DNA of 64,000 nt. It comes from an uncultured delta proteobacterium. GTDB lineage: Bacteria > Desulfobacterota > Binatia > UBA9968. Made by a program: the position numbers and the translations under genes. A model generated the notes under the pieces. That model did not search any database. It was given only the letters and a program-made list of their open reading frames with translations, and was not told where the DNA came from. Of the stretch, positions 39,692 through 51,396 are shown in pieces. The stretch is from assembly GCA_963760795.1 (NCBI GenBank), contig CAVXEP010000022.1, forward strand, positions 32,001 to 96,000. Direction: 5' to 3'. Each line of letters begins with the position of its first letter. The first letter of the stretch is position 1.

Positions 39692-40516
39692 CTAAAGTTT
39701 TTGCAGGTGAGCATTTTTTGCCGAATATCCGACTCGATCGTTGGCAGGCAAAGATACCCCGCAGGCGAACAAGCCGAGTAACAAGCCGCCAACTCCGGCG
39801 CCCACCGCGATCCAGTACTGATTGAGGATGCAAAATCCCAGGGGCAGTGCGAAGTTGACTCCATAGACCCACATGGCGAAATGCATCGAAGTCTTCGGTC
39901 GCGCCACCAGCTGGTTGAGAACGATAAACAGCACCAATCCAGTAACGCCCCAACCGAAAAGATTCATCCACGGCATACCATAGTAGCTCCCCGCTTCACC
40001 CCAGACCCAATAACTGGTTACCTTGCTCATCGCCGGGTCAAGCAGCAGATCCCAGGAAACCAACAAGACCGTAGCGAGCATGATCGCTATGACACCCGAA
40101 CGGTGCTGGCAGGCCATTGTCCAGCAAGCCCAACTCATGGTGAACCAACTGAGTGGAATCAACAGCGGCACGAGCTCGAACCACTTGGGACCGAGCAGGC
40201 TTGTATAGGAGTAAGGCCCGAACGGCACGCCCCAGCCGGTGCCCATGAGCTCGCTCGCCAAACTAACCGCATAGACGACGGCAAACGCGAATAACGCCGC
40301 GAGGCGATTTCTGAGCAAGGCGTCGGCTACCACGGCAAGACCGCCGAAAAGCATATTGCCGACGGCGAAACCGTGAAACGCCCAGGTAAAGAAACGCGCT
40401 TGGGGATCGACCTGCATCAAGAGATCGGGACGCGAAGTAAAAATACCATAACCCAACAAGCTCGCGACCACGATCAGCGCCTGTAAAACTAAAAAGCCCC
40501 ATGCTACGAAGTGCAT
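39692..40516 (-). CDS. cruF: Carotenoid 1,2-hydratase, CruF-type membrane protein
   Basis: 'SELMGT..GVPFGPYSYT..LGPK...VPLLIPLSWF', 'WDLLLDPAM', 'YYGMPWMNLFGW'. Located in the crt cluster. Confidence 0.85.
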   Translation of the reverse strand: MHFVAWGFLVLQALIVVASLLGYGIFTSRPDLLMQVDPQARFFTWAFHGFAVGNMLFGGLAVVADALLRNRLAALFAFAVVYAVSLASELMGTGWGVPFGPYSYTSLLGPKWFELVPLLIPLSWFTMSWACWTMACQHRSGVIAIMLATVLLVSWDLLLDPAMSKVTSYWVWGEAGSYYGMPWMNLFGWGVTGLVLFIVLNQLVARPKTSMHFAMWVYGVNFALPLGFCILNQYWIAVGAGVGGLLLGLFACGVSLPANDRVGYSAKNAHLQKL

Positions 40517-40711
40517 CGTCGCTCCTCCATTTGAATTTGAACACTCATCAATCACAAGCAGCGGGCCGCAGACACACCGCGCTAACCAACGAATCGAGGA
40601 TCCGCTGCCGCCGGCTCAATAGCGCGATCGCCAACGATAGCACCCTCGGTCGGTACACTAAGCCACGATTTTGAGAATTGAGATCCATTATCTCTTTTTC
40701 GTAACTTCGCT

Positions 40712-41992
40712 TCACACCATCGCTCCACGCTCGATGACTAAGGCGGAGTTCTTCGAACCGAAACCAATGCAATTACAGAGCGCGATATCGGTGGCTTTGG
40801 CGATGCTCTGATTGGGAATGTAATTGAGATCGCACTCCGGATCGGACTCGTCCAGATTGATCGTCGGCGGCAAAAAGCCGCCATTCATACCACAGATCGC
40901 GGCGATGACGCCCGCCGCGCCCGATGCCCCTTGAGGATGGCCGATCATCGACTTGACCGAACTCATCGGCAGCTCACGCGCCCGTTTGCCGAAGCATAAC
41001 TTGGTCGCGCGGGTCTCAGTTTTATCATTCAGAACTGTTGCGGTGCCGTGCAGCGCAATGTAACCGACTTCGTCTTTGGCCAGCCGCGCATCTTCGATCG
41101 CCAGGCTCATCGCCCGGGCGGGCTCCTCGCCGCTCGGCTCGAGACGGACACGGTGATAAGCGTCGCATGTCGAGGCATAACCGCGCACCTCGGCATAGAT
41201 CGTTGCACCGCGGATCAACGCCAACTCGCGCTCTTCGAGAATCAAAATCCACGCGCCCTCGCCGAGGACAAAGCCGTCCCGGCTCCGGTCGAACGGCCGC
41301 GACGCCCGTGCCGGCTCATCGTTGTGCGATGTCGACACCGCTTGCATGACGCAGAACCCCTGCATGATCGCCGGCGTAATCGTCGCGTCGGCGCCGCCGG
41401 TGACAAAATGATCGGCCAAGCCGAAACGAATTTGATTGAAGGCGTAGCCGAGAGCGTCGGTGGAGCTGGTGCAGCCGGTGGAAATCACATGGCTCGGTCC
41501 ATGAAAACCGAAATGGATCGATAGTTCGCTCGAAAGCGAGCCGAGGGTCGAACTCGAAACGTTGTAGGCGCTGATTTTACGCAACTGATCGCGGTAATAG
41601 AGGCGATACTGTTCCTCGACGAAATCGGCTGTGCCGCCGCCGCTGCCAAGGATCACGCCCCAGGACTGTTTTTCCTCCAAGCTCATGCCTGCCGGAGAAA
41701 CTCGGGCGCGGCGCAGCGCTTCCTGCGCGGCGGCGACCGCCAGATGCACCGCGCGACCGGTGCGTTTGATATCTTTGGCGGACAGGAAACTCTCCGCCTC
41801 AACGTTCCGAACCTCACCGGCGACGCGGCAAGAAAGCGCGCCAGCATCGAAGCAGGAGATCGTATCGATACCGCTGCTACCTCGCCGCAGAGACTCTTGA
41901 TAGGCATCGGCGCCAATACCGTTCGGGCTCACGACACCGACCCCGGTGACGACAACCCGCCGGCGTTTTGAATCAACTTCGTATCGGCTCAT
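40712..41992 (-). CDS. Beta-ketoacyl-ACP synthase (FabF/KS-alpha-like)
   Basis: 'RRVVVTGVGVVSPNGIG', catalytic Cys 'STGCTSS', 'RPFDRSRDGFVLGEGA', His 'HGTAT', 'KSMIGH', 'GFGSKN'. Confidence 0.92.
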   Translation of the reverse strand: MSRYEVDSKRRRVVVTGVGVVSPNGIGADAYQESLRRGSSGIDTISCFDAGALSCRVAGEVRNVEAESFLSAKDIKRTGRAVHLAVAAAQEALRRARVSPAGMSLEEKQSWGVILGSGGGTADFVEEQYRLYYRDQLRKISAYNVSSSTLGSLSSELSIHFGFHGPSHVISTGCTSSTDALGYAFNQIRFGLADHFVTGGADATITPAIMQGFCVMQAVSTSHNDEPARASRPFDRSRDGFVLGEGAWILILEERELALIRGATIYAEVRGYASTCDAYHRVRLEPSGEEPARAMSLAIEDARLAKDEVGYIALHGTATVLNDKTETRATKLCFGKRARELPMSSVKSMIGHPQGASGAAGVIAAICGMNGGFLPPTINLDESDPECDLNYIPNQSIAKATDIALCNCIGFGSKNSALVIERGAMV

Positions 41993-42043
41993 TGAATTCG
42001 GCCACATCCGTTCGCTTGCCGGCATTTCGTATCAAGCTCGATC

Positions 42044-42997
42044 TCATTGAACATTGGAATATTTCCAGATGGTTCTCAATGCACCAGGCGACCAGGGCTT
42101 AAACAAACGAGCCGGCATTGAGCGCACGAGACTTAAGACGCCACGCAGCACCACCCAAATTTTACGCGCGCCGGTGACATAAGTCCGTTGATCCCAAGCT
42201 CGCGCACCGCGTTTGACCAACAGGGAACCGATCTCGGAATAAACATGACGCGCCGCCGACACGGCGCAGGCTGAACGAAACGACAAATGCCACAAGCCGG
42301 CATCGCCCGATCGATAGTAGCGATCCGCTTCGTTGAGCAGCCGCAGCGTCAACATCGCCAACTTGTCACGATTCTCCGGCGCGCTGATTTGATCAGGAGG
42401 AATTTTTGCTTCATCGAGCCAGGCCAGCGGCAGATAGATGCGCCCCATCCCGGCATCCTCAGTGATGTCGCGGGCGATATTGGTGAGCTGCATGGCGATA
42501 CCAAGATCGGCGGCGTTGCGCAGCGCGCTTTCGTCGCGCAACCCCATCACATGGGACATCATTAAACCAACAGTACCGGCAACCCGGTAACAGTAGAGCA
42601 CGAGCTCGCGCAAAGTCCGGTATCGAGTCCCGCGCACATCCATCGCCATGCCTTCGATCAATTCGAGCGCGTAGTGCGCCGGTATGCCGTAGCGGTGCAC
42701 GATATGTTGCAGGGCGATAAACACCGGTTCTTGCTGCGGCGCAAAGGAGAAAGCCGAAGCGGTTTTCTCTTTTAGTGCTTTAAGCCTGGCTTCCAACTCG
42801 ACCCGATCATCCGCTTCGCCGGCATCATCGACTTGATCGTCGCAGTAGCGGCACCAGCCATAAAGAAACACCGCCGCGTCGCGCGTCTGAGCATCGAAGA
42901 GCTTTGCAGCCAGGGAGAAGCTCTTCGAGCCCTTGGTGATAATTTCGCGGCAATCATTGAGCGCCGCGCGCACTTCAGGGGTTAGCGCATCAGGCAT
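42044..42997 (-). CDS. crtB: Phytoene synthase
   Basis: 'GSKSFSLAA', 'LYGWCRYCDDQVD', 'GMAMD', 'YCYRVAGTVG', 'LGIAMQLTNIARDI.ED..MGRIYLP'. Confidence 0.95.
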   Translation of the reverse strand: MPDALTPEVRAALNDCREIITKGSKSFSLAAKLFDAQTRDAAVFLYGWCRYCDDQVDDAGEADDRVELEARLKALKEKTASAFSFAPQQEPVFIALQHIVHRYGIPAHYALELIEGMAMDVRGTRYRTLRELVLYCYRVAGTVGLMMSHVMGLRDESALRNAADLGIAMQLTNIARDITEDAGMGRIYLPLAWLDEAKIPPDQISAPENRDKLAMLTLRLLNEADRYYRSGDAGLWHLSFRSACAVSAARHVYSEIGSLLVKRGARAWDQRTYVTGARKIWVVLRGVLSLVRSMPARLFKPWSPGALRTIWKYSNVQ

Positions 42998-44522
42998 AGG
43001 ACACTTCCGCCGTTTTGACAGCCGAACTTGCCAAAACAGATTTCATATCTTCAAGAATCAAATTGGCGGTCGCCTTGCCGGAATTGACCACGCCCGGTAT
43101 ACCCGCCCCCGGATGCGTGCCGGCGCCGACGAAATAGAGCCCGCGAATATGCCGATCGCGATTGTGCACGCGAAAATAAGCGCTCTGCATCAGGCGCGGC
43201 TCCAAGGAAAATGCCGAGCCAAGATGGGCGTTGAGCTCACTCTTAAAATCGGCCGGGGTAAAAATTCGCTGCGTGACAATCGACGCGGCGAGACCGGGCA
43301 TGTAGCGCTGCTCCAAATACTTTAAAATCTTTGCCGCGTAACCTGGCCCCTCAACTTTCCAGTCGATCGCGAGCTTACCCAGATGCGGCACCGGCGAGAG
43401 CACGTAGAAGGCTTCGCAGCCTGGCGGCGCCAGCGTCGGATCGGAACGCGTCGGCGCGTGCAGATAAAGCGAAAAATCGTCGGCCAGTCTGCCACGTTCA
43501 AAAATATCGCCCAAGAGTTCGCGGTAGCGCGGTCCGAAGATGACGTTATGGTGCTGCAAATTGGGATAGGCCCGATTGGTGCCGAAGTAAATGAGAAATA
43601 GCGACATGCTGTATTTTTTATGGCCAAGCTTTCGTGCCATCGGGGCGGCACGCGGTTCGCCTTTGAGCAGCCGATCGTAGGTGTGGACGACATCGGCGTT
43701 ACTCACCACCAGATCGAAACTTTCTTCCCGCCCCGCGTTGGTTTGCAAACCCGTCACCGCGCCGTCACGGGTAACGATCCTTTCGATCTCAGCCTCGAAA
43801 CGAATCTCACCACCGAGTTCTCGGAAAAGTCTTACCAACGCCCAAACCAGCTGGCCCGTGCCGCCCTTGGGGAAAAACACTCCCCACTTGCGTTCGAGGC
43901 AATGAATCAGCGTATAAATCGACGTGGTCGTAAACGGGTTGCCGCCGACCAAGAGCGAATGAAAACTAAACAGCTGGCGCAGATGCGGATCGCGAATATG
44001 TTTGGCGACCATGCTGTAGACCGAGCGGTAAGCTTCAAGCCGAATCAACTGCGGTGCCACCGCCGCCATGCTCGAGAGATTTAAGAACGGCACATGAACC
44101 AGCTTTTCGTAACCTTCATGAAAGACTTCTTGCGAGTATTTTAAGAATTTTTGATAGCCCGCCCAATCGGCCGGCGATTTGGCGCGAATTTGCCGCTCCA
44201 GCGCGGCATCGTCGTCCGAGTAATCGAAGACGTATCCATCGTCCCAGAACAAACGGTAAAACGGGGTGACCGGCATCAGCTCGACGTAATCTTGCAGCGA
44301 TTTGCCGGCGACCGCGAAAAGCTCTTCTAGACAATGCGGTGCGGTAATGACCGTTGGGCCGGCATCGAAGGTAAATCCGTTGTCACGATAAACGTAGGCA
44401 CGACCGCCGGGCTGATCGCGCTTTTCAAAAATAATAGTGTCGCAGCCAGCCGCTTGCAGACGAATGGCGGCGGCGAGGCCGCCGAAACCGCTACCGATGA
44501 CTGCGACGCGCGGCTTATCCAT
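42990..44522 (-). CDS. crtI: Phytoene desaturase (Pantoea-type)
   Basis: 'IGSGFGGLAAAIRLQA', 'GFTFDAGPTVIT', 'SFHSLLVGGNPF', 'VGAGTHPGAGIPGV'. Confidence 0.96.
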   Translation of the reverse strand: MDKPRVAVIGSGFGGLAAAIRLQAAGCDTIIFEKRDQPGGRAYVYRDNGFTFDAGPTVITAPHCLEELFAVAGKSLQDYVELMPVTPFYRLFWDDGYVFDYSDDDAALERQIRAKSPADWAGYQKFLKYSQEVFHEGYEKLVHVPFLNLSSMAAVAPQLIRLEAYRSVYSMVAKHIRDPHLRQLFSFHSLLVGGNPFTTTSIYTLIHCLERKWGVFFPKGGTGQLVWALVRLFRELGGEIRFEAEIERIVTRDGAVTGLQTNAGREESFDLVVSNADVVHTYDRLLKGEPRAAPMARKLGHKKYSMSLFLIYFGTNRAYPNLQHHNVIFGPRYRELLGDIFERGRLADDFSLYLHAPTRSDPTLAPPGCEAFYVLSPVPHLGKLAIDWKVEGPGYAAKILKYLEQRYMPGLAASIVTQRIFTPADFKSELNAHLGSAFSLEPRLMQSAYFRVHNRDRHIRGLYFVGAGTHPGAGIPGVVNSGKATANLILEDMKSVLASSAVKTAEVSYA

Positions 44523-45640
44523 AAGCGACTGCAATTTCCTCGCCCAACTGGCGCAGTTCGTTGAAGGCTCGCGATGACCAAGCTATATCCGACTCGCACA
44601 AGCGCTGTTTCAACCTAGCGAAGGCACGATCCAGATGCAGGCGCGCGCTTGCGCGGGTCATTGGAATCAGATCATGAGAGGCGATCCAGCTTTCCAACGA
44701 CTTGGCGTTGGGTAACTCGGCGACAGCATGGAGAAACGTTTCATACTCATAAGCGTCGGTTGAATTTGCCGCGCAAGCCCACACCCAAGAGGGGCGCGAC
44801 AGCGATAGGTCTTCAAAACGCTTTTGCGGATCGCATTTGCCGATGACATTTCCCAGGTCATCGTACATTTGTAATGCGATGCCAAGATCGACGCCAAAGG
44901 CATCGAGCGATTCAATCACGCGCTGGGGCTTGCCTGCCACGGTTCCGCCCAGCGCCGCCGCGAACCCCATCAAAGCGCCGGTCTTGAGAGTCATCCCGGC
45001 CAGGCACACTTCCGCCACCGATGTCTGCGGCAACTGCGGCACCTTGGCGCCTAGATCGAGACCTTGGCCGAAATGCGCGCGCAACAGCGTTCGGTTATAT
45101 CGCTCATACAGGCACGCCATTTGTTCAGCCGCGAGGCCGGCGTCTTTGAGCAGCTCGAATGGCCAGAAGTAAAGCCAGTTTCCAGCGTTGAGCGCCAAGG
45201 GAACTCCGTATTGCACATGCAATGCCGGCCGCCCACGGCGCATCTCGCTGCCATCCTCGATGTCATCGACGATTAACGAGCCGGCGTGCATCAGTTCGAC
45301 GACCTCTGCGCAGTCGCGGCACTGCTTTGCCGCGGCAAACGACACCGCGCGCTCATCGTGGAACAGTCGATAAGTCATCGCGACGAGTTGCGCCCGGATA
45401 CGCTTGCCCGGATTGGCCGTAAGCGCTGCCACAGGGTCGAGCAACGCTTGCCGCAGGGCACTTTCCACCGCGGCGCTATGATCGATGCCGAGAAGCTCCG
45501 CCAAACGGCCATCGGCAAACATTACCGCTTCAGCGCCGGCGCCACTGGGTAGCCGGCTTGGCTTGTCATCTGATGCCGGCGCGATAGCGCCGCTTCGCCA
45601 GCGTCGTGCCGCTGTACATCGTCAATCCTTGATGTTTCAT
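44515..45640 (-). CDS. crtE: Geranylgeranyl diphosphate synthase (probable frameshift near 45600; intact ORF from 45522)
   Basis: 'GKRIRA', 'HAGSLIVDDIEDGS.MRRG', 'GQGLD', 'KTG', 'QMYDDL'. RBS GGGGAG precedes an out-of-frame ATG at 45640. The stop overlaps the crtI start. Confidence 0.85.
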
Positions 45641-45664
45641 CCTATCTCTCCCCTATGAGCACAA

Positions 45665-46582
45665 TCACCCTTCCGCTGACAACAATGTCTCCGGCGGCAC
45701 TTCCAAAGCGTTGGCCATGCGCACCATAATATCCAGGGAAACGTTTTGCTTGGCGCCTTCGACGGCGATGATGCAGGCGCGCGCCACCTGAGTCACCTCG
45801 GCCAGGTGCTCTTGAGTCCATCCCCGTTTTGTCCGCAAATCGCGCACGCGGCGCGCCAGCACCATTTGATATTCTTTGAGCACTGACTTGGGCCGATCGG
45901 CGCGCAACAGCCGGCCGATGGAACTTACACCGACCATGATATCTTCAGCAATTTCACAACGCCGGCCAAGATTTTTCACGCTGGGATTGTCTACTACCGC
46001 CTGTCCGGCAATAACCACCCGGACCTCAGGCGCCGACTTTTCTAAGTCACCAATTACCAGACGAGCATTTTCAACCCCCTGCGTCATCGTCACGGATAGC
46101 CCAATCACCTGCGGGTGACGTCGATGCACCATCTCAACCAGCGCTTGGTTGGGCACATTGGCGCCGAGAAAGTCGACGTGCCAGCCCCGTGCCCCGCATA
46201 GGTCAGCCAGCATGCGAGCGCCGATGTAATGCTGCTCTCCTTCGATGCAGGCAACCATTACGCGATAGAGTGAGCGCCTAGCGGGAGGCGCGAAGTGCGC
46301 GCGCAGGCGGTCCATCTGGCCGATCACGATCTCCGTCGCCAGCTTCTGTTCGCCGACCCCGATATCACCGCGGCACCATGACTCGCCGACACCTTCGAGA
46401 GCCGGGGTGACTACTTTGAGATAAATATCGCCAAGCGTCTGCTGCGATGAGATAAGTTCGTCAGTGACCTGCCCGGCGATCTCGTGATCGCCGTTGACAA
46501 TGGCGTGGGCCAAGCGCTTTTGCTTTGCGTCGAAATATTCGGCGCTGGCATCGGCAGCAAATTTTTCCAAGGTAGCGGCCAT
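45665..46582 (-). CDS. Cobalamin-binding regulator: B12-binding_2 helical bundle + B12 Rossmann domain + C-terminal XRE HTH
   Basis: 'PALEGVGESWCRGDIGVGEQKLAT', base-off His motif 'EGEQHYIG..M', 'FLGANVP', 'IGLSVT', 'VIAGQA', then 'RVRDLRTKRGWTQEHLAE...IIAVEGAKQNVSLD...ANALEV'. Confidence 0.88.
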   Translation of the reverse strand: MAATLEKFAADASAEYFDAKQKRLAHAIVNGDHEIAGQVTDELISSQQTLGDIYLKVVTPALEGVGESWCRGDIGVGEQKLATEIVIGQMDRLRAHFAPPARRSLYRVMVACIEGEQHYIGARMLADLCGARGWHVDFLGANVPNQALVEMVHRRHPQVIGLSVTMTQGVENARLVIGDLEKSAPEVRVVIAGQAVVDNPSVKNLGRRCEIAEDIMVGVSSIGRLLRADRPKSVLKEYQMVLARRVRDLRTKRGWTQEHLAEVTQVARACIIAVEGAKQNVSLDIMVRMANALEVPPETLLSAEG

Positions 46583-46631
46583 ATTCAAAGCCTAAATAAA
46601 ACTAATCGAGATTCGACAATGGACCAACTTG

Positions 46632-47539
46632 CTAAAGCCCCAACGACTCCAGGGCCAGCTTAAGATTCGGATATTTGAATTTGAAACCGAGCTTGATCGC
46701 CGCCTCGGGAATCGCCCGCTGGCCGTTCAGCAACATCTCCGCCATCTCACCCACCATCAGCGCCAGTACAAATGGCGGCACCCTTGCCCACGACGGCCGG
46801 TTCAATACGCCACCCAGAGTCTTGGAAAACTCTGCCATGGTCACCGGATTGGGCGCCGTGCCATTAAATGCGCCGCGCGCGCTCTCGTTCTCGACCAGGA
46901 ACTGAATCAATCCGACCTCATCTTCGATATGAATCCACGGCATCCACTGCCGGCCCGAACCGAGCGGCCCGCCAGTAAACATTTTGAACGGCGGCACCAT
47001 CTTTTTTAACGCACCCTCGCCTTTGGCCAAGACGATGCCCGTGCGCAGCAAGCAAACCCGCACACCAAGCGATTCCGCCTTCTTCGCTTGCCGATTCCCA
47101 ATCGACGCACAGGCGCGCGAGAAAATCGTCGCCGGGTTTGCTGTCTTCGTTCAACGGTTCGTCGCCGTGGGGACCGTAGTAGCCCACTGCCGATGCACTG
47201 ATCATTAATTTCGGTTTGACCTGGGCCTTAGCGATGGCATCAACCAACGCTTTCGTCCCATCGACACGGCTCGAGCGCAGAATTTCCTTTTGCTTGGGAG
47301 TCCATCGCTTACCGGCGATCGGCTCCCCTGCAAGATTGATCACCGCATCGGCACCGTCGATGGCACGCTCCCAGTCGCCGCTGGCACCCGGCTGCCACGC
47401 CAACCACTGTTTTTTCGCTACGCTAATTTCCGCCGGTGGTCTGCGGCTAAGCAAGACTAACGCAGTGATGACTCTTCGACAACCGCTCGGTCAATAGCGA
47501 TCCGATCATGCCCGTGGCGCCGGTAAGTACGATTTTCAT
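46632..47539 (-). CDS. TIGR01777/YfcH-like NAD-dependent epimerase-family protein (two apparent frameshifts, ~47465 and ~47090)
   Basis: 'MKIVLTGATGMIG', 'DAVINLAGEPI..KRW', 'SASAVGYYG', 'FLARLC.DWE', 'RTGIVL', 'GSGRQWMPWIHIED'. Confidence 0.85.
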
Positions 47540-47631
47540 CTTGTGTTAATACCGCTCTCAGAATGGCTAAGAACTTCCATCAATGTACGATATAGTTGAC
47601 GTTTCTATCTAAAATGTTATCAATAGTCAAC

Positions 47632-48601
47632 ATGGACGCGAAAAAATTTTCAAATACTAATCCGAAAGTAGGAATCAGCGCCTGCCTGCTCGGACAGCAG
47701 GTACGCTTCGACGGCGGGCACAAACGCGATCTCTTTCTCACCGATCTTTTCGGCAAATTCGTCGACTGGGTAGCCATCTGTCCCGAAGTCGAAGTCGGCA
47801 TGGGCGTGCCGCGCGAGACGGTGCGGTTAGTCGGAACACCGACCGATCCGCGAATGATCGCAGAGAAATCTGGTAAAGACTGGACTGAAGCGATGCATCG
47901 CTTCGCCGCGAAACGCGTACGGGACATCGCTGAACAAACAGTTGTCGGGCTATGTATTCAAGAAAAACTCACCCAGCTGCGGCATGGAGCGGATCAAAGT
48001 CTATAACGCAAAAGGCATGGCGGAGCGGCAAGGCCGCGGCCTTTTCGCTGCGGCGCTGATGAACCAGTGGCCGCTCTTGCCGGTCGAAGAAGAGGGCCGG
48101 CTGAACGATTTAAAGCTTAGAGAAAATTTCATCGAGAGAGTCTTCGCCTACCATCGCTGGCTGCAAGCAACGTCGGAGCGAAGATCACCCGGGGCGCTGG
48201 TGCGCTTTCACACGAGTCACAAATATTTATTGCTGGCGCACAGCGAGCGTCACTATCGCCAACTCGGTCGCCTGGTGGCGGCAGCGAAACAAATATCTAT
48301 TGCCGCGGTTTACGACGACTACGGCCGGGTTTTTATGGACGCGTTAGCGGTTCACGCTACTGAGAAGTCTCATGCCAATGTCCTGGATCACATGATGGGC
48401 TACTTCTCCAAGCAGTTGACCGCCGCCGAGCGACAAGAACTGGTGCAATTAATCGGCGAATTCCGCCACCGGCTCATTCCGTTGATCGCGCCGATCACAA
48501 TGATCCGCCACTACACTAGAAAATACCAAGTTGCATACTTGCAAGGACAGCTTTATCTGGAACCCAATCCTAAGGAGCTGATGCTGCGAAACCATGTCTA
48601 A
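47632..48601 (+). CDS. DUF523 (TudS-like thiouracil desulfidase)-DUF1722 fusion, YbgA/RudS-type (frameshift near 47940)
   Basis: Fe-S Cys motifs 'ISACLLG...RFDGGHK', 'ICPEVEVG', 'SPSCG', plus 'PVEEEGRL.D..LRENF.ER', 'FH..HKY.LLAH', 'YL.P.P.EL.LRNHV'. Confidence 0.88.
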
Positions 48602-48637
48602 GCGACAGGGTTTGCTCGACGGGTAACAATAACTATC

Positions 48638-49117
48638 ATGAAGACCTACTGGCTTAGAAAAACAATTTGGCTGCCGCAACCACGCGCCAAAGTGTTCGAG
48701 TTCTTTTCCAACCCCGGCAATCTCGATCGCCTCACGCCGGCATGGCTCAACTTCGCGATTCTGACACCGGCGTCGAGCAAAATGAAACAGGGATCGTTGT
48801 TAGACTATCGGCTACGCATTCGCGGCATACCGATTCGCTGGCAGAGCGAGATCGCCGTCTGGGAACCGCCGCACCGTTTCGTCGACCGGCAAACCAAAGG
48901 TCCCTACTCCCTCTGGGTCCACGAACACATCTTCGAAGAGCATGACAATGGCACACTGGTTGGCGACAACGTCGAATATGCCGTCCCCGGCGGACGCATC
49001 GTGCAGAAGTTTCTGGTCGCTCCCGATATTGAGCGAATCTTTGACTATCGCCACAAAATATTGGAAGAACTGTTCAATCCGGCGAAGCTCACGCGGTCAC
49101 AGCGATCCGGCGCTTAA
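48638..49117 (+). CDS. SRPBCC (polyketide cyclase/START-like) protein
   Basis: '[14 protein letters not shown]', 'W.SEI..WEPP.RFVD.Q.KGPY..W.HEH.F', 'IFDYR'. Confidence 0.85.
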
Positions 49118-50515
49118 GGATTCGACAGCGCGCCTTTTTCTAACGCCGCCACGCGCGCGATATAAGCTTTACTGTTGAACTTGCGCGATGTACTGGCAAA
49201 GGACATATAACGGATTTTTCCGTAAATTGGCCGCTCCGGGCCCCAGGCCCGGTCATGCTTGCCGACGATCGCCCAGGCGATCCCGGCGTAACCGTTGGGA
49301 TCGCGGCCATCAGTTCGTAGCGATCGTTCAGCCGAACGGCGATCTCGAACGCATCGGCCGGCGCGGGGCTCCATTCAAGAATTTTCTTGGCCCAATACAT
49401 GCGCAGGTAGCCGTGCATCCAACCGGTCAGCACCATTTGTTTTTGCGCAGCGTTCCACAGCGGATCGTGGGTTTCGGCGTTCTCAAGCTGTCTTTCCGAA
49501 TAAATATACGGGCGCGAGTCGCGCGCATGAAGGCGCAGACTGCGATCCGCCCAAGGCGCACTGGCCTCGAAGCTGTCGTAGCTTGGATTGTAGCGGACAA
49601 AATTTATCGCCAACTCACGGCGCACGATGAGCTCCTCGAGAAACGCCTTCTTGGCGAGATCCGGTGCGCTGGCGTGTGTTGCCGCCAGCGCAACCTGCTG
49701 GACGCTGATATGGCCGAAATGAAGATACGGCGACAGCTGGCTAGTGCCGTCAATGTCCGGCTGATTGCGCTGCGTGTCATAGGCGGCAAGCCGGGTGGCG
49801 AGAAACCGGTCAAGCGGCGCTCGCGCCGCCCGCGCACCGCCAACAAATCTCGCTACCGGGAGCACCGAACGGTCGATGGGAAAATTTTCCAACAGCGAGT
49901 CATCCACGTCGACAGTTTGCAGCCCGGCGGGACAGTCGCCATTCAACGTGGGCGCTCGGATTAGTCGGAGGTATCAGAAAACCGGACAACAGGTCCCGAA
50001 TCTTCGGACGGATCGTGCGTGCCGCGTAATGCTCTTTACCGAGCAATCGGCTTGGCACGACGACATCGGCGTCCACGGTCCAGAACGGCACTCGAAGGTC
50101 GCAGCGATGCGCGCTCCTTAGCGCGTTCCGCCTCGCGCAACGGGTTCTCATCGCCGATGACCAGACAGGGGCTAACCTGCGCACAAAATCGCGCCAGGCC
50201 GTGATCCGGATATCGGCGCAAAACAAATCCAACTCGGCGTTTCCGCAGCTCGGTCGAGAGATCGACAAGCCCTTGGCGCATGAACTCATAGTGGCGAAGA
50301 TTCGCACGACCAGATCGAGGGAAAAGCTGAAAGAAGACAACGACCGGTTTGCTAAGCAGGTTGGCCGCTTCGATAGCGACGTTCAGAGCCGGATTGTCGC
50401 GCGCTCGTTGCGCTCGCTGCATCCAGTAAATGACGCAACTTCCATTATGATCCGGCGCGCCGGCTTTGCGCCGGGTTACGCGCGCATCGAACTCCAACGA
50501 TTCAAGATTATTCAT
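49114..50515 (-). CDS. phr: Class II CPD photolyase (three apparent frameshifts, ~50105, ~49945, ~49310)
   Basis: Four consecutive ORF pieces give '[15 protein letters not shown]', 'VDADVVVP', '[10 protein letters not shown]', 'EELIVRREL', '[10 protein letters not shown]...[16 protein letters not shown]', '[13 protein letters not shown]...[15 protein letters not shown]'. Confidence 0.9.
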
Positions 50516-50619
50516 TGGCTATATGTTCTATATTAGACTGAGATCTTCAATCGAAGATTAGCGTATGTCCAAATCATTTGCTAAAAACAATCGACTGCCC
50601 ACCTAAATGAGGCAAATCT

Positions 50620-51396
50620 ATGAACGGTTCTTCATGGAGACGTCGGAGATGCACCAGGTTTACGCTCATTGCAATGATCATGATGGCAATGCCGTTCGGT
50701 CGATTGCTATTGGCCCAGGAAGAAAACCCATTAGCTCCGGGCACCTACCGCCTGGAAATGATCATGGCGTCGACAACCCGGGTGCCGGTCTTCGGCACCT
50801 CGAAGTCGGCATCGAAGTCAGTCTCCCTAGTTGAGATCAAACGTGATGGCGCGGGGCTGATCCAAACCCACAAGACCTGCGAATTTCGTGTGCTCGAAGA
50901 CTCCAAGTTCATCAAAATGATCTTTCCCGAGAAGTTTGTCGCGGCACTGGCACGACACACTTATCCGCTGCAATTCGACAAAGACGCGCAAGGCTGGCGC
51001 TATCGCGCCGATCTTGGCATTGAACGGATCGGCTACAAATCGAACGGCAACGAAACAGCCCTGCCCGCCAAGATCGACGACCCGGCGGTTTACGACTGGG
51101 ACGGCGATGGCAAGCCGGCCGCCACACTCAAGATTTCCATCCCGCTATTACCCGACGGAGAGTTTTATGTCGTGCAACGCGGCCATTCGATCCTCAACGG
51201 CCGGATCGCCCAACCGGGAAAAATCGAGGGCGCCATCGAAACCCGCTTGTTCGAACAGCGCGTGCTCGGCGCGTGGCCAGGCTTTTTGAATCAATCGGCA
51301 GAGGTCGAACCTGATCCCAAAGAGAGCCGCTTCGTTCTGAGCCAGATCGCTGCCGGTAGCACCTGTGAAACTTTGCTATCCGCCGGCAAATCTTGA
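50620..51396 (+). CDS. Secreted hypothetical protein with a DxDxDG motif
   Basis: Hydrophobic N-terminus ending 'LLAQEE', 'YDWDGDGKPA', two Cys in the mature part; codon usage is gene-like. Start is uncertain. Confidence 0.65.
   Translation: MNGSSWRRRRCTRFTLIAMIMMAMPFGRLLLAQEENPLAPGTYRLEMIMASTTRVPVFGTSKSASKSVSLVEIKRDGAGLIQTHKTCEFRVLEDSKFIKMIFPEKFVAALARHTYPLQFDKDAQGWRYRADLGIERIGYKSNGNETALPAKIDDPAVYDWDGDGKPAATLKISIPLLPDGEFYVVQRGHSILNGRIAQPGKIEGAIETRLFEQRVLGAWPGFLNQSAEVEPDPKESRFVLSQIAAGSTCETLLSAGKS

What the first reader, a model, noticed from the sequence alone, without database searches (positions are those of the whole stretch)
45665..46582. Inverted-architecture B12 regulator: CarH-like sensor with an altered upper-ligand site fused to a C-terminal XRE HTH
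Seen: a four-helix cap, a Rossmann B12 domain with the lower-ligand His ('EGEQHYIG') and a C-terminal Cro/XRE HTH, encoded directly upstream of crtE-crtI-crtB. No MerR-type gene is in the island. The cap reads W-C-R-G-D-I-G-V-G-E-Q-K. Known: CarH/LitR photoreceptors have an N-terminal MerR HTH and a W-x9-E-H motif (Thermus WHRGEIGVAEEH) that holds the adenosyl group, with the His after Trp ligating cobalt after photolysis. Here Trp is kept but those positions are Cys, Gln and Lys. Inference: a possibly undescribed class of cobalamin-dependent light or redox switch, with a different DNA-binding module and perhaps Cys ligation or a non-adenosyl corrinoid or heme, controlling carotenoid and photorepair genes. 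This is the best candidate for a new system in the window.
Basis: partly seen in the sequence, partly recalled or inferred. Interest (0 to 1): 0.88.

Follow-up and report, generated by a model that had tools for sequence, protein, structure and literature searches.

The report
Inverted CarH-like B12 carotenoid regulator
A vitamin-B12-binding sensor fused to an unusual C-terminal DNA-binding module heads a carotenoid operon; it belongs to a large, untested family that probably turns on sun-protection genes in light, and this copy has changed the pocket that normally holds the light-sensitive part of B12.

Summary
Window 45665-46582 (-) encodes a 305-aa protein with B12-binding_2, B12-binding and a C-terminal XRE HTH. 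The lower-ligand His is kept, and the cap reads W-C-x8-Q-K where CarH has W-H-x8-E-H. It is not a one-off: 145 relatives were found in species-representative genomes, and 1,271 50%-identity clusters match at E<=1e-30. Chloroflexota and Bdellovibrionota members keep the canonical W-H...E-H. A carotenoid-linked clade has W-C, and within it E-H changed to E-K and then Q-K, with a Q84E swap. The Q-K cap is under purifying selection. The gene lies in an SDR-regulator-crtE-crtI-crtB operon. Its divergent promoter (47540-47631) carries two conserved pseudo-palindromes about 31 bp apart, the only strong such sites in the genome. A CarH-like head-to-tail dimer is predicted. Best reading: a corrinoid-dependent, light-released repressor. 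The chromophore form and a role for Cys70 are untested. My literature searches found no description of this architecture. It is a new variant of a known kind.

The parts
45665..46582 (-). Regulator gene (305 aa plus stop): B12 sensor with a C-terminal XRE HTH
   Evidence: single copy in the genome
46304..46519 (-). Four-helix bundle cap (aa 22-93, B12-binding_2)
   Evidence: AF2 helices 33-45, 50-71 and 76-96 with pLDDT above 90
46343..46378 (-). Cap motif W69-C70-x8-Q79-K80, in place of CarH W-H-x8-E-H
   Evidence: 0 nonsynonymous against 4-7 synonymous differences in aa 60-96 among the Q-K genes
45992..46264 (-). Rossmann B12-binding domain (aa 107-197) with lower-ligand His118 (46229-46231), S163-x-T165, G140-x3-P144
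   Evidence: Foldseek TM 0.80-0.84 to CarH and CtMerR B12 domains
45686..45847 (-). C-terminal XRE/Cro-type helix-turn-helix (aa 246-299)
   Evidence: PDB sequence hits C.AhdI, C.BclI and DdrOC
47612..47633 (-). Operator-like site 1 (read on the minus strand ATGTTGACTATTGATAACATTT); overlaps the start codon of the divergent DUF523 gene
   Evidence: (38.1 bits, top site in the genome)
47581..47602 (-). Operator-like site 2 (ACGTCAACTATATCGTACATTG), a pseudo-palindrome 31 nt from site 1. Its right arm is degenerate here but palindromic in most relatives
   Evidence: (25.7 bits)
46632..47539 (-). SDR/DUF1731 gene, first gene of the operon; two single-base frameshifts in this assembly
44515..45640 (-). 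crtE-like polyprenyl synthase. In relatives it starts about 25 nt after the regulator's stop. Here the 39-codon N-terminal extension is out of frame
42044..44534 (-). crtI and crtB, following in the same operon
47632..49117 (+). Divergent unit: DUF523-DUF1722 (YbgA-like, one frameshift here) and an SRPBCC protein

Best explanation
The gene encodes a CarH-like corrinoid sensor-repressor with the domain order reversed and a different DNA-binding module. An N-terminal four-helix cap and Rossmann B12 domain sense the signal; a C-terminal XRE helix-turn-helix binds DNA. Proposed mechanism follows. In the dark the corrinoid-loaded protein, most simply with adenosylcobalamin held His118-on, forms head-to-tail B12-domain dimers and probably a dimer of dimers. 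This places HTH pairs on two pseudo-palindromic sites about 31 bp apart in the divergent promoter 47540-47631. That blocks both the SDR-regulator-crtE-crtI-crtB operon, so the gene is autoregulated, and the DUF523/DUF1722-SRPBCC unit. Light cleaves the upper Co-C bond, the oligomer loosens, and both units are expressed. In this subclade the pocket that caps the adenosyl group has been remodelled (E79Q, H80K, Q84E). The residue that ligates cobalt after photolysis in Thermus CarH is Cys70, which may take over that role. Shown here: architecture, motifs, family distribution, synteny, conserved site pair, purifying selection. Inferred: corrinoid identity, oligomer state, repression, light response.
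For: Architecture. The corrinoid-binding motif is kept, with H118 invariant in 39 of 39 and S163 and G193 invariant. Three of the four published light-signature elements are kept: GESW, GEQH, GANVP (signature from PMC11796333). The same architecture carries the complete CarH signature W-H-x8-E-H in 37 of 187 censused sequences (Chloroflexota, Bdellovibrionota), so the family descends from photoreceptor-type domains. Light-related context appears in two groups of taxa. In the W-C clade, crtE is directly downstream in 29 of 30 loci, crtI in 26 of 30, and a photolyase is nearby in 12 of 30. In Chloroflexota, a photolyase and/or NmrA-DUF2867 gene is adjacent in 7 loci. The operator-like pair is present in 26 of 30 clade loci, 9 of them not used to build the matrices, at an offset of 29-31 nt. 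It moves with the regulator when the SDR gene is absent. A second pair precedes a photolyase operon in L027. In this genome the pair scores 38.1 and 25.7 bits against next-best 19.4 and 16.3. The homodimer prediction gave ipSAE 0.56 against a best control of 0.00. The three runs share at least 94% of contacts, and partner pLDDT is at least 83. By the tool's calibration the mark was reached by 20 of 30 proteins solved as pairs and 1 of 23 solved as single chains. The interface puts cap helix 75-95 on Rossmann 135-155, including G140-P144, as in CarH-type head-to-tail dimers. Purifying selection acts among Q-K genes: dN/dS 0.16-0.29, and 0 nonsynonymous against 4-7 synonymous changes in aa 60-96. 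A PduO-type adenosyltransferase is present in the genome (212.6 bits).
Against: The E-H pair is Q-K here. The review PMC8156234 (passages read) calls Wx9EH absolutely conserved in all CarH homologues studied, and attributes CarA's B12-independence largely to its absence. By the published signature this protein would therefore not be called light-responsive. Nothing here shows corrinoid binding, DNA binding or a light response. The sequence is about as close to non-photoreceptor corrinoid proteins (4jgi 7.5e-15; TIGR02370 4.4e-15) as to photocobilins, and the fold does not discriminate (MtmC TM 0.82). The dimer prediction may be recalled from solved CarH and CtMerR structures, and the HTH domains are not in the interface. 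The conserved sites overlap putative -35 and -10 elements, so part of their conservation may be promoter rather than operator. The promoter scan tool found 0 consensus promoters in 45400-50700. Site 2 has lost its right arm in this subclade. The photolyase promoter has no site. Most Bdellovibrionota members have no light-related neighbours. No methylmalonyl-CoA mutase was found, so AdoCbl use by this organism is otherwise unproven (genome 88.9% complete).
Confidence: 0.5

Rival explanations
1. AerR-like logic. The protein does not hold adenosylcobalamin in the dark. It captures light-generated hydroxo- or cob(II)alamin through Cys70 as upper ligand and His118 as lower ligand, and this binding changes its DNA affinity.
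For: The adenosyl-capping E-H pair is lost, while the residue next to Trp is a nearly invariant Cys in the clade. That position is the one that ligates cobalt after photolysis in TtCarH (PMC10442372, passages read). Co-Cys ligation exists in HgcA (PMC8123684, passage read).
Against: Sister proteins with the same Cys and the same synteny keep E-H (53 of 187), which argues for an adenosyl dark state in the clade's ancestor. Trp69 and the GxxxP loop, which pack on the adenosyl group in CarH and CtMerR, are kept. The predicted dimer is CarH-like.
Confidence: 0.15
2. CarA-like B12-independent repressor. The B12 domain serves only as an oligomerisation scaffold, and the light signal, if any, comes through another protein.
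For: Loss of E-H parallels CarA, whose B12-independence the review attributes largely to lack of Wx9EH.
Against: The lower-ligand His and the rest of the corrinoid motif are invariant. The remodelled cap is under strong purifying selection, with a coupled E79Q/Q84E swap, which suggests a maintained pocket. No antirepressor candidate was identified, but none was searched for systematically.
Confidence: 0.12
3. A sensor unrelated to light. It reports corrinoid availability or redox state, through a Cys70 thiol or the cobalt oxidation state, and adjusts isoprenoid and carotenoid synthesis.
For: Sequence closeness to methyl-transfer corrinoid proteins, a conserved Cys in the cap, and no light-related neighbours in most Bdellovibrionota members.
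Against: The neighbours in this clade are carotenoid, photolyase, YbgA-like and SRPBCC genes. YbgA-like and SDR genes are, from recall, typical of light-induced regulons. No cobalamin synthesis or transport genes are adjacent.
Confidence: 0.13

Closest known systems
CarH/LitR (Thermus thermophilus, Myxococcus xanthus, Bacillus megaterium): AdoCbl-dependent light-released repressor of carotenoid genes
   Same: Four-helix cap plus Rossmann B12 domain (Foldseek TM 0.80-0.82). Lower His in ExHxxG, Trp of the cap, GxxxP loop. Predicted head-to-tail dimer. Sits at a crt operon.
   Different: The DNA-binding domain is an XRE HTH at the C-terminus, not a MerR winged helix at the N-terminus. E-H is Q-K, and the post-photolysis His ligand is Cys. 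The putative operator is two pseudo-palindromes about 31 bp apart rather than 11-bp direct repeats. It scores 61 bits against a 400-bit cut-off for NCBIfam TransRegCarH.
CtMerR (Chloracidobacterium thermophilum, PDB 8JBS/8JBT) and photocobilins (8J2W/X/Y)
   Same: These are the best sequence matches among solved structures (1.2e-17; 3.5e-15 to 4.6e-15). The residue after Trp is not His in them either (Arg, Gln, Tyr).
   Different: They keep E-H. Their output is an N-terminal MerR domain, or biliverdin-binding and GGDEF domains.
CarA (M. xanthus), the B12-independent paralogue of CarH
   Same: A CarH-like B12 domain lacking the complete Wx9EH motif, and a repressor of a crt operon.
   Different: CarA has a MerR domain and works with the antirepressor CarS. 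Here the Trp and all corrinoid-binding residues are kept.
AerR/PpaA cobalamin-binding antirepressors of CrtJ/PpsR
   Same: A B12 domain used for light and redox control of pigment genes. The upper ligand comes from the protein after photolysis (recalled, and from the abstracts listed).
   Different: They have no DNA-binding domain of their own and act on a partner repressor. No relationship beyond the B12 domain was tested here.
Controller (C) proteins and other XRE/Cro-type repressors (C.AhdI 1Y7Y, C.BclI, DdrO)
   Same: The C-terminal 60 aa match them (3.7e-6 to 3e-3). Paired palindromic operators bound cooperatively are typical of C proteins (recalled).
   Different: Those are small stand-alone HTH proteins, or carry other sensor domains.

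Membership tests
CarH/LitR family (MerR-type AdoCbl photoreceptors) | N-terminal MerR-type winged-helix DNA-binding domain | tested here: not met
   No MerR Pfam hit. The only DNA-binding domain is HTH_3/HTH_31 at aa 242-299.
CarH/LitR family (MerR-type AdoCbl photoreceptors) | B12-binding motif ExHxxG-x41-SxV/T-x22-27-GG | tested here: met
   E116-x-H118-xx-G121, x41, S163-V-T165, x26, A192-G193. The first Gly of GG is Ala here but Gly in at least 90% of the family.
CarH/LitR family (MerR-type AdoCbl photoreceptors) | Wx9EH motif capping the adenosyl group | tested here: not met
   W69 is present, but positions +10 and +11 are Q79 and K80.
CarH/LitR family (MerR-type AdoCbl photoreceptors) | Score above the curated cut-off of NCBIfam NF052513 | tested here: not met
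   61 bits against a 400-bit cut-off; only profile positions 83-261 match.
CarH/LitR family (MerR-type AdoCbl photoreceptors) | AdoCbl-dependent dark tetramer that dissociates in light | not testable with these tools
   Only a CarH-like head-to-tail dimer prediction is available: ipSAE 0.56, best control 0.00.
Light-responsive cobalamin-binding domains (SignatureFinder signature GxxW, EH, GxxH, GxxxP) | All four signature elements present | tested here: not met
   G66-E-S-W69, G115-E-Q-H118 and G140-A-N-V-P144 are present; EH is QK.
XRE/Cro-C1 helix-turn-helix (PF01381) | Pfam score above the gathering threshold | tested here: met
   HTH_3 scores 35.4 bits (cut-off 23) and HTH_31 37.1 bits (cut-off 27).
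Methyltransferase corrinoid proteins (TIGR02370, MtaC/MtbC/MttC) | Score above the curated cut-off; partner methyltransferase genes nearby | tested here: not met
   55.6 bits against a 215.3-bit cut-off. No methyltransferase genes in the neighbourhood.
B12 sensor with C-terminal XRE HTH (family delimited here, unnamed) | About 300 aa carrying B12-binding_2, B12-binding and a C-terminal HTH with the AVEG[GA]KQN recognition region | tested here: met
   114 of the 120 listed homologues carry all three Pfam domains. 145 relatives occur in species-representative genomes. The top 150 representatives are nearly all 280-330 aa and match full length.

The most novel reading that the evidence does not exclude
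The W-C clade, and the Q-K subclade above all, would be a distinct photochemical class of B12 photoreceptor. The adenosyl (or another alkyl) group would be capped without the supposedly indispensable Glu-His pair, using a relocated carboxylate (E84) and a Lys. After photolysis the cobalt would be captured by a cysteine thiolate (Cys70/His118 ligation) instead of bis-His. That would couple the light signal to thiol redox state and drive release of an XRE-type tetramer from paired palindromic operators.
Probability: 0.22. Interest if true: 0.8.

Novelty: new variant of a known kind. Interest (0 to 1): 0.62.

Why it matters
B12-based photoreception has so far been worked out only for MerR-type CarH/LitR, AerR and the photocobilins. 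This finding delimits a large family that joins a CarH-type sensor to a different DNA-binding module in the opposite order. The family has hundreds of 50%-identity clusters and spans Chloroflexota including SAR202, Bdellovibrionota, Planctomycetota and a 'Binatia'-labelled clade. Two members sit in genomes of cultured strains (Candidatus Lucifugimonas marina, Candidatus Uabimicrobium amorphum), so the family can be tested. Within one syntenic, orthologous clade, nature has varied the two positions thought essential (E-H to E-K to Q-K, with a compensating Q84E). It has also replaced the His that drives tetramer disassembly in Thermus CarH with Cys. That offers a ready-made series for asking what those residues really do. 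It may also widen the sequence signature used to mine genomes for green-light sensors and optogenetic parts.

Tried and rejected
Leads that went nowhere, and readings considered and rejected:

- An operator before crtE (45640-45665). Rejected: in relatives the crtE ORF starts about 25 nt after the regulator's stop, behind a ribosome-binding site. The best matrix score in 45520-45670 is -9.8 bits.
- An operator before the photolyase (50516-50620). The best score is 0.8 bits, and the repeat finder found no repeats there.
- Repeats in the window's intergenic regions by the repeat finder. Nothing useful appeared. The site pair emerged only from comparing loci.
- The consensus promoter scan found 0 promoter-like sites in 45400-50700. 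My -35 and -10 assignments are by eye and fall below that tool's threshold.
- A genome-wide regulon search with the two matrices gave no convincing second target.
- Searching Bdellovibrionota loci with the clade's matrices gave no hits of 12 bits or more in the main W-H-E-H clade. Those loci carry a different conserved two-part element before the regulator, which I did not analyse further.
- Fold comparison does not separate photoreceptor from methyl-transfer corrinoid domains.
- Phylum and class sampling with P0001 gave 5 of 201 and 8 of 151 genomes at E<=1e-20. Only one is a full-length orthologue, in the same genus at 53% identity. This says little beyond patchiness.
- The earlier-findings look-up returned nothing.
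- The run search found no run holding half or more of the stretch's words (best share 0.25). Habitat labels of the small-share holders are therefore not used. The rhizosphere RNA-library contigs covering parts of the regulator at about 96-97% identity are not evidence of transcription of this gene.
- Heme as ligand was rejected on motif conservation only.
Full report

The ORF at 45665..46588 (-) is listed. From the ATG at 46582 it gives a 305-aa protein, P0001, and homologues begin at the same Met. Pfam finds three domains, all above their curated cut-offs:
- B12-binding_2, aa 22-93, 4.3e-11
- B12-binding, aa 107-197, 3.4e-19
- HTH_3, aa 246-299, 1.1e-8, and HTH_31, 3.9e-9

The classical corrinoid motif is present as E116-x-H118-xx-G121, x41, S163-V-T165, x26, A192-G193. 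The cap reads W69-C-R-G-D-I-G-V-G-E-Q79-K80.

A gapless phmmer alignment to the solved B12 domain of CtMerR (8jbs, E 1.2e-17) puts C70, Q79 and K80 opposite that protein's Arg, Glu and His. The numbering in PMC10442372 (Trp131, His132, Glu141; passages read) gives the same register for Thermus CarH.

Downstream on the same strand lie a crtE-like polyprenyl synthase, crtI and crtB. They are followed by a ketoacyl synthase, a Caroten_synth protein, a second polyprenyl synthase and dxs.

The genome is 6.58 Mb in 35 contigs and 88.9% complete. It has one copy of the gene. The CarH model NF052513 hits nothing else. The three MerR_1 hits lie on other contigs in frames of 78-175 aa. The only other protein with both B12 domains sits in a 645-aa frame on another contig.

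IT IS A MEMBER OF A LARGE FAMILY

The word-indexed search gave 195 proteins with E<=1e-3 among 5,780 candidates. Of the 120 listed, 114 carry B12-binding_2, B12-binding and HTH_3; the other six are shorter or lack one Pfam call. Source names are automatic: 'MtbC1/XRE', 'MerR light-induced', 'cobalamin-dependent protein [Candidatus Binatia bacterium]'.

I built a profile from 39 of those 120, chosen to span 43-92% identity. It found 1,271 representatives of 50%-identity clusters at E<=1e-30. Nearly all of the best 150 are 280-330 aa and match over the full length.

In one genome per species, 198 stretches matched the peptide patterns and 145 encode a relative. The best 80 were kept as L003-L082. 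By record titles they fall into two groups:
- MAGs labelled Binatia, 'delta proteobacterium', Thermodesulfobacteriota and Syntrophobacter, at 40-90% identity.
- At about 30% identity: Bdellovibrionota, Chloroflexota/Dehalococcoidia/SAR202, Candidatus Uabimicrobium amorphum, Acidobacteriota, Bipolaricaulia and Myxococcota. The SAR202 set includes two loci in the complete genome of Candidatus Lucifugimonas marina JH545.

THE ALTERED CAP IS A DERIVED STATE, NOT THE FAMILY'S HALLMARK

I censused the four positions W, +1, +10 and +11 in 187 sequences: P0001, 73 locus ORFs and 113 metagenome proteins of at least 280 aa. These rows are not independent of one another. All keep the lower His and the GxxxP loop, apart from truncated ORFs.

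| State (W, +1, +10, +11) | Count |
|---|---|
| W-C-E-K | 53 |
| W-C-E-H | 53 |
| W-H-E-H | 37 |
| W-C-Q-K | 28 |
| other | 16 |

A quick maximum-likelihood tree was built from 66 rows. Locus ORFs under 280 aa were left out, only the last 320 aa of each row were used, and the three motif columns were not removed.
- It splits at SH-aLRT 99 into a W-C clade of 24 rows and a clade of 42 rows. The second clade always has E-H, and 34 of its rows have His after Trp.
- Inside the W-C clade, E-H lineages are basal and paraphyletic.
- E-K appears in at least two places.
- Q-K (window, L003, L004) is nested in an E-K group, with L005 (E-K) as sister. One long-branch row (L028) is W-R-Q-K.
- The tree is unrooted, so polarity rests on the uniform E-H of the other clade.

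Position 84 co-varies with the cap. It is Gln in 36 of 37 W-H-E-H and 48 of 53 W-C-E-H sequences, but Glu in 26 of 28 W-C-Q-K sequences. So E79/Q84 became Q79/E84 alongside H80K.

Among the three Q-K genes with DNA in hand, dN/dS is 0.16-0.29. Residues 60-96 show 0 nonsynonymous against 4-7 synonymous differences. The remodelled cap is therefore maintained, not decaying.

CONTEXT

tblastn with the window's proteins covered the 30 loci of the W-C clade (L003-L030, L035, L076):
- crtE lies directly downstream on the same strand in 29 of 30. The exception is a contig that ends.
- crtI follows in 26 of 30.
- An SDR/DUF1731 gene usually lies upstream on the same strand.
- A divergent DUF523-DUF1722-SRPBCC unit is usually present.
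- A photolyase lies within 10 kb in 12 of 30.

In relatives the crtE ORF starts about 25 nt after the regulator's stop, behind a GGAG-type ribosome-binding site. SDR, regulator and crtEIB therefore form one transcription unit, starting at the divergent promoter.

None of the other 50 loci has crtE. In Chloroflexota, a photolyase and/or an NmrA-DUF2867 gene, or GTP cyclohydrolase I, lies next to the regulator in L062, L067, L068, L071, L072, L075 and L077.

Bdellovibrionota loci instead share a DnaJ-domain protein, a CmoB-like methyltransferase, ApaG, a Mur ligase and SAH hydrolase. None of these is obviously light-related.

THE PUTATIVE OPERATOR

The true intergenic region is 47540-47631. It lies between the SDR start (ATG at 47539 on the minus strand, 'MKIVLTGATGMIGS') and the DUF523 ATG at 47632.

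Eighteen loci aligned in register show two conserved blocks:
- Site 1: (A/G)TGTT(T/G)ACTATTnAtAACATT, window 47612-47633.
- Site 2: AAGTCAAnTATAnnTTGACT, window 47581-47602.

Site 2 is a perfect 6-6-6 palindrome in L012. Its right arm is degenerate in the window's subclade.

I built weight matrices without the window (16 and 17 loci; L027 dropped from site 1 for uncertain register, L076 dropped as too short). Scanning gave the following:
- In the window's genome the pair scores 38.1 and 25.7 bits. The next best hits anywhere in 6.58 Mb score 19.4 and 16.3 bits.
- Both sites occur in 26 of 30 clade loci, nine of which were not in the training set, at an offset of 29-31 nt.
- Two loci have site 2 only. 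Two short contigs lack the region.
- Where the SDR gene is absent (L017, L021, L024, L025), the sites sit 90-364 nt before the regulator itself.
- L027 has a second pair in front of an NmrA/DUF2867-photolyase operon, and L028 has another pair.
- A site-2-like palindrome (ATCAACTATCGTTGAC) lies upstream of both Lucifugimonas copies. Those two loci look like duplicates of each other.

Caveats. Read towards DUF523, the left arm of site 2 is a TTGAC -35-like hexamer. Site 1 covers an ATCAAT -10-like hexamer, with the ATG 7-8 nt further on, which suggests a leaderless transcript. Part of the conservation may therefore be promoter rather than operator. The consensus promoter scan reports no promoter in 45400-50700.

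In the window nothing else exceeds 8 bits. The photolyase upstream region scores 0.8.

STRUCTURE AND OLIGOMER

AlphaFold2 on the 39-row alignment gives mean pLDDT 79.4. The B12 domains are mostly above 90 and the HTH is at 53-64.

Foldseek matches the CtMerR B12 domain (TM 0.81-0.84) and the Thermus CarH B12 domain (0.78-0.82). It also matches the monomethylamine corrinoid protein (0.82), so the fold does not tell photoreceptors from methyl carriers.

A two-copy prediction scored ipSAE 0.56 against a best control of 0.00. The runs share at least 94% of their contacts, and partner pLDDT is at least 83. By the tool's calibration the mark was reached by 20 of 30 proteins solved as pairs and by 1 of 23 solved as single chains.

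The symmetric interface lays cap helix 75-95 (with K80 and L81) on residues 135-155 of the other copy, including F138-L139-G140 and N142-V143-P144. That is the CarH/CtMerR head-to-tail arrangement, in which the neighbour's GxxxP loop covers the adenosyl pocket (PMC11796333, section 11). Such complexes are solved, so the pass may reflect likeness only. The HTH domains are not in the interface.

HOW IT MOST LIKELY WORKS

It most likely works as a corrinoid-dependent repressor. In the dark it oligomerises through its B12 domains and places HTH pairs on the two sites about three helical turns apart. This shuts off its own operon (SDR-regulator-crtEIB and beyond) and the divergent YbgA-like/SRPBCC unit. 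Light releases it.

Arguments in favour:
- descent from domains with the full photoreceptor signature;
- retention of Trp, the lower His and the GxxxP loop;
- carotenoid and photolyase contexts in two distant groups of taxa;
- the operator pair following the regulator's promoter;
- a PduO-type adenosyltransferase in the genome.

Arguments against:
- E-H is missing, and the review PMC8156234 calls Wx9EH absolutely conserved in all CarH homologues studied;
- no methylmalonyl-CoA mutase was found;
- nothing here tests ligand binding, DNA binding or light response.

Poddar et al. (PMC10442372) show that His132 ligation is needed for tetramer disassembly in Thermus CarH. The same position here is a nearly invariant Cys, and CtMerR and the photocobilins have Arg, Gln or Tyr there. 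A thiolate ligand after photolysis is possible but untested.

Rivals: AerR-like capture of photolysed cobalamin, a CarA-like B12-independent repressor, or a sensor of redox state or B12 status.

COMPARISON AND NOVELTY

It works like CarH but is not a member of that family. The MerR domain, the E-H pair and the NCBIfam cut-off (61 against 400 bits) are all not met. It also fails the four-part SignatureFinder signature on E-H.

Seven full-text searches found no paper describing a B12 domain with a C-terminal XRE HTH, or Cys ligation in a CarH-type protein. Two papers come close:
- SignatureFinder states only that HTH outputs occur on either side of light-type B12 domains (section 12). Its Fig. 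9, Fig. S9 and supplements were not available to me and may show E-H members of this family.
- P2TF (2012) noted that 2 of 37 proteobacterial B12-domain transcription factors lacked a MerR domain, without describing them.

I rate it a new variant of a known kind.

SIDE OBSERVATION ON ASSEMBLY QUALITY

Against orthologues, the window carries seven single-base indels that break reading frames:
- the crtE N-terminal extension (about 45585-45587);
- the SDR gene (about 47088-47090 and 47463);
- the YbgA-like gene (about 47935);
- the photolyase (about 49310, 49934 and 50103).

Contigs from three DNA metagenome runs and one RNA library (about 93-97% identical) lack each of them wherever they cover the place. 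The indels are therefore peculiar to this assembly and are most simply errors. The regulator, crtI and crtB carry none.

Noticed in passing
window 45585-50103 (about 45586, 47089, 47463, 47935, 49310, 49934, 50103): Seven single-base indels break the crtE N-terminal extension, the SDR/DUF1731 gene (twice), the DUF523-DUF1722 gene and the photolyase (three times). Most are not in long homopolymers. Contigs of four independent public runs lack each of them, so they are specific to this assembly: probably errors, possibly strain-specific pseudogenes.
   Followed up: yes
window 47619-47634: The DUF523-DUF1722 gene has no visible ribosome-binding site. Its ATG lies 7-8 nt after a -10-like ATCAAT, which suggests a leaderless transcript. 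In relatives the ATG lies 0-8 nt from site 1.
   Followed up: partly
L036-L065 (Bdellovibrionota loci), 50-120 nt before the regulator: A different conserved two-part element of the type GTGTATTTATGCATCA ... TATGCA, about 31 nt apart, flanks a TGnTAYCMT extended -10-like box. It lies in the gap between the regulator and a divergent DnaJ-domain gene. The two-site spacing echoes that of the carotenoid-linked clade.
   Followed up: partly
L072 and L077 (Candidatus Lucifugimonas marina JH545): Two near-duplicate cassettes: a W-H-E-H regulator divergent from fasciclin, GTP cyclohydrolase I, a hypothetical gene and a photolyase, each with the same palindrome upstream. This strain is cultured and could serve as a test organism.
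   Followed up: partly
own genome G000 and its relatives: The full-length orthologue was found in only 1 of 3 other genomes of the same genus, and in none of 5 from other genera of the family. Yet the closest homologues (up to 90% identity) are in MAGs with varied labels (Binatia, Thermodesulfobacteriota, Syntrophobacter). The island is patchily distributed, or the labels and binning are inconsistent; contamination of G000 is 6.15%.
   Followed up: no
window 40712-42025 and 39692-40555: A beta-ketoacyl synthase and a Caroten_synth-family gene sit inside the crt-isoprenoid operon, between crtB and ispA-dxs. The ketoacyl synthase is present in only some relatives (7 of the 30 clade loci have a hit by tblastn; six lie in this position, L028's is elsewhere on the opposite strand).
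   Followed up: no
own genome, contig C15:123599-124117: A PduO-type cobalamin adenosyltransferase is present, but no methylmalonyl-CoA mutase was found. Other AdoCbl enzymes were not searched for.
   Followed up: partly
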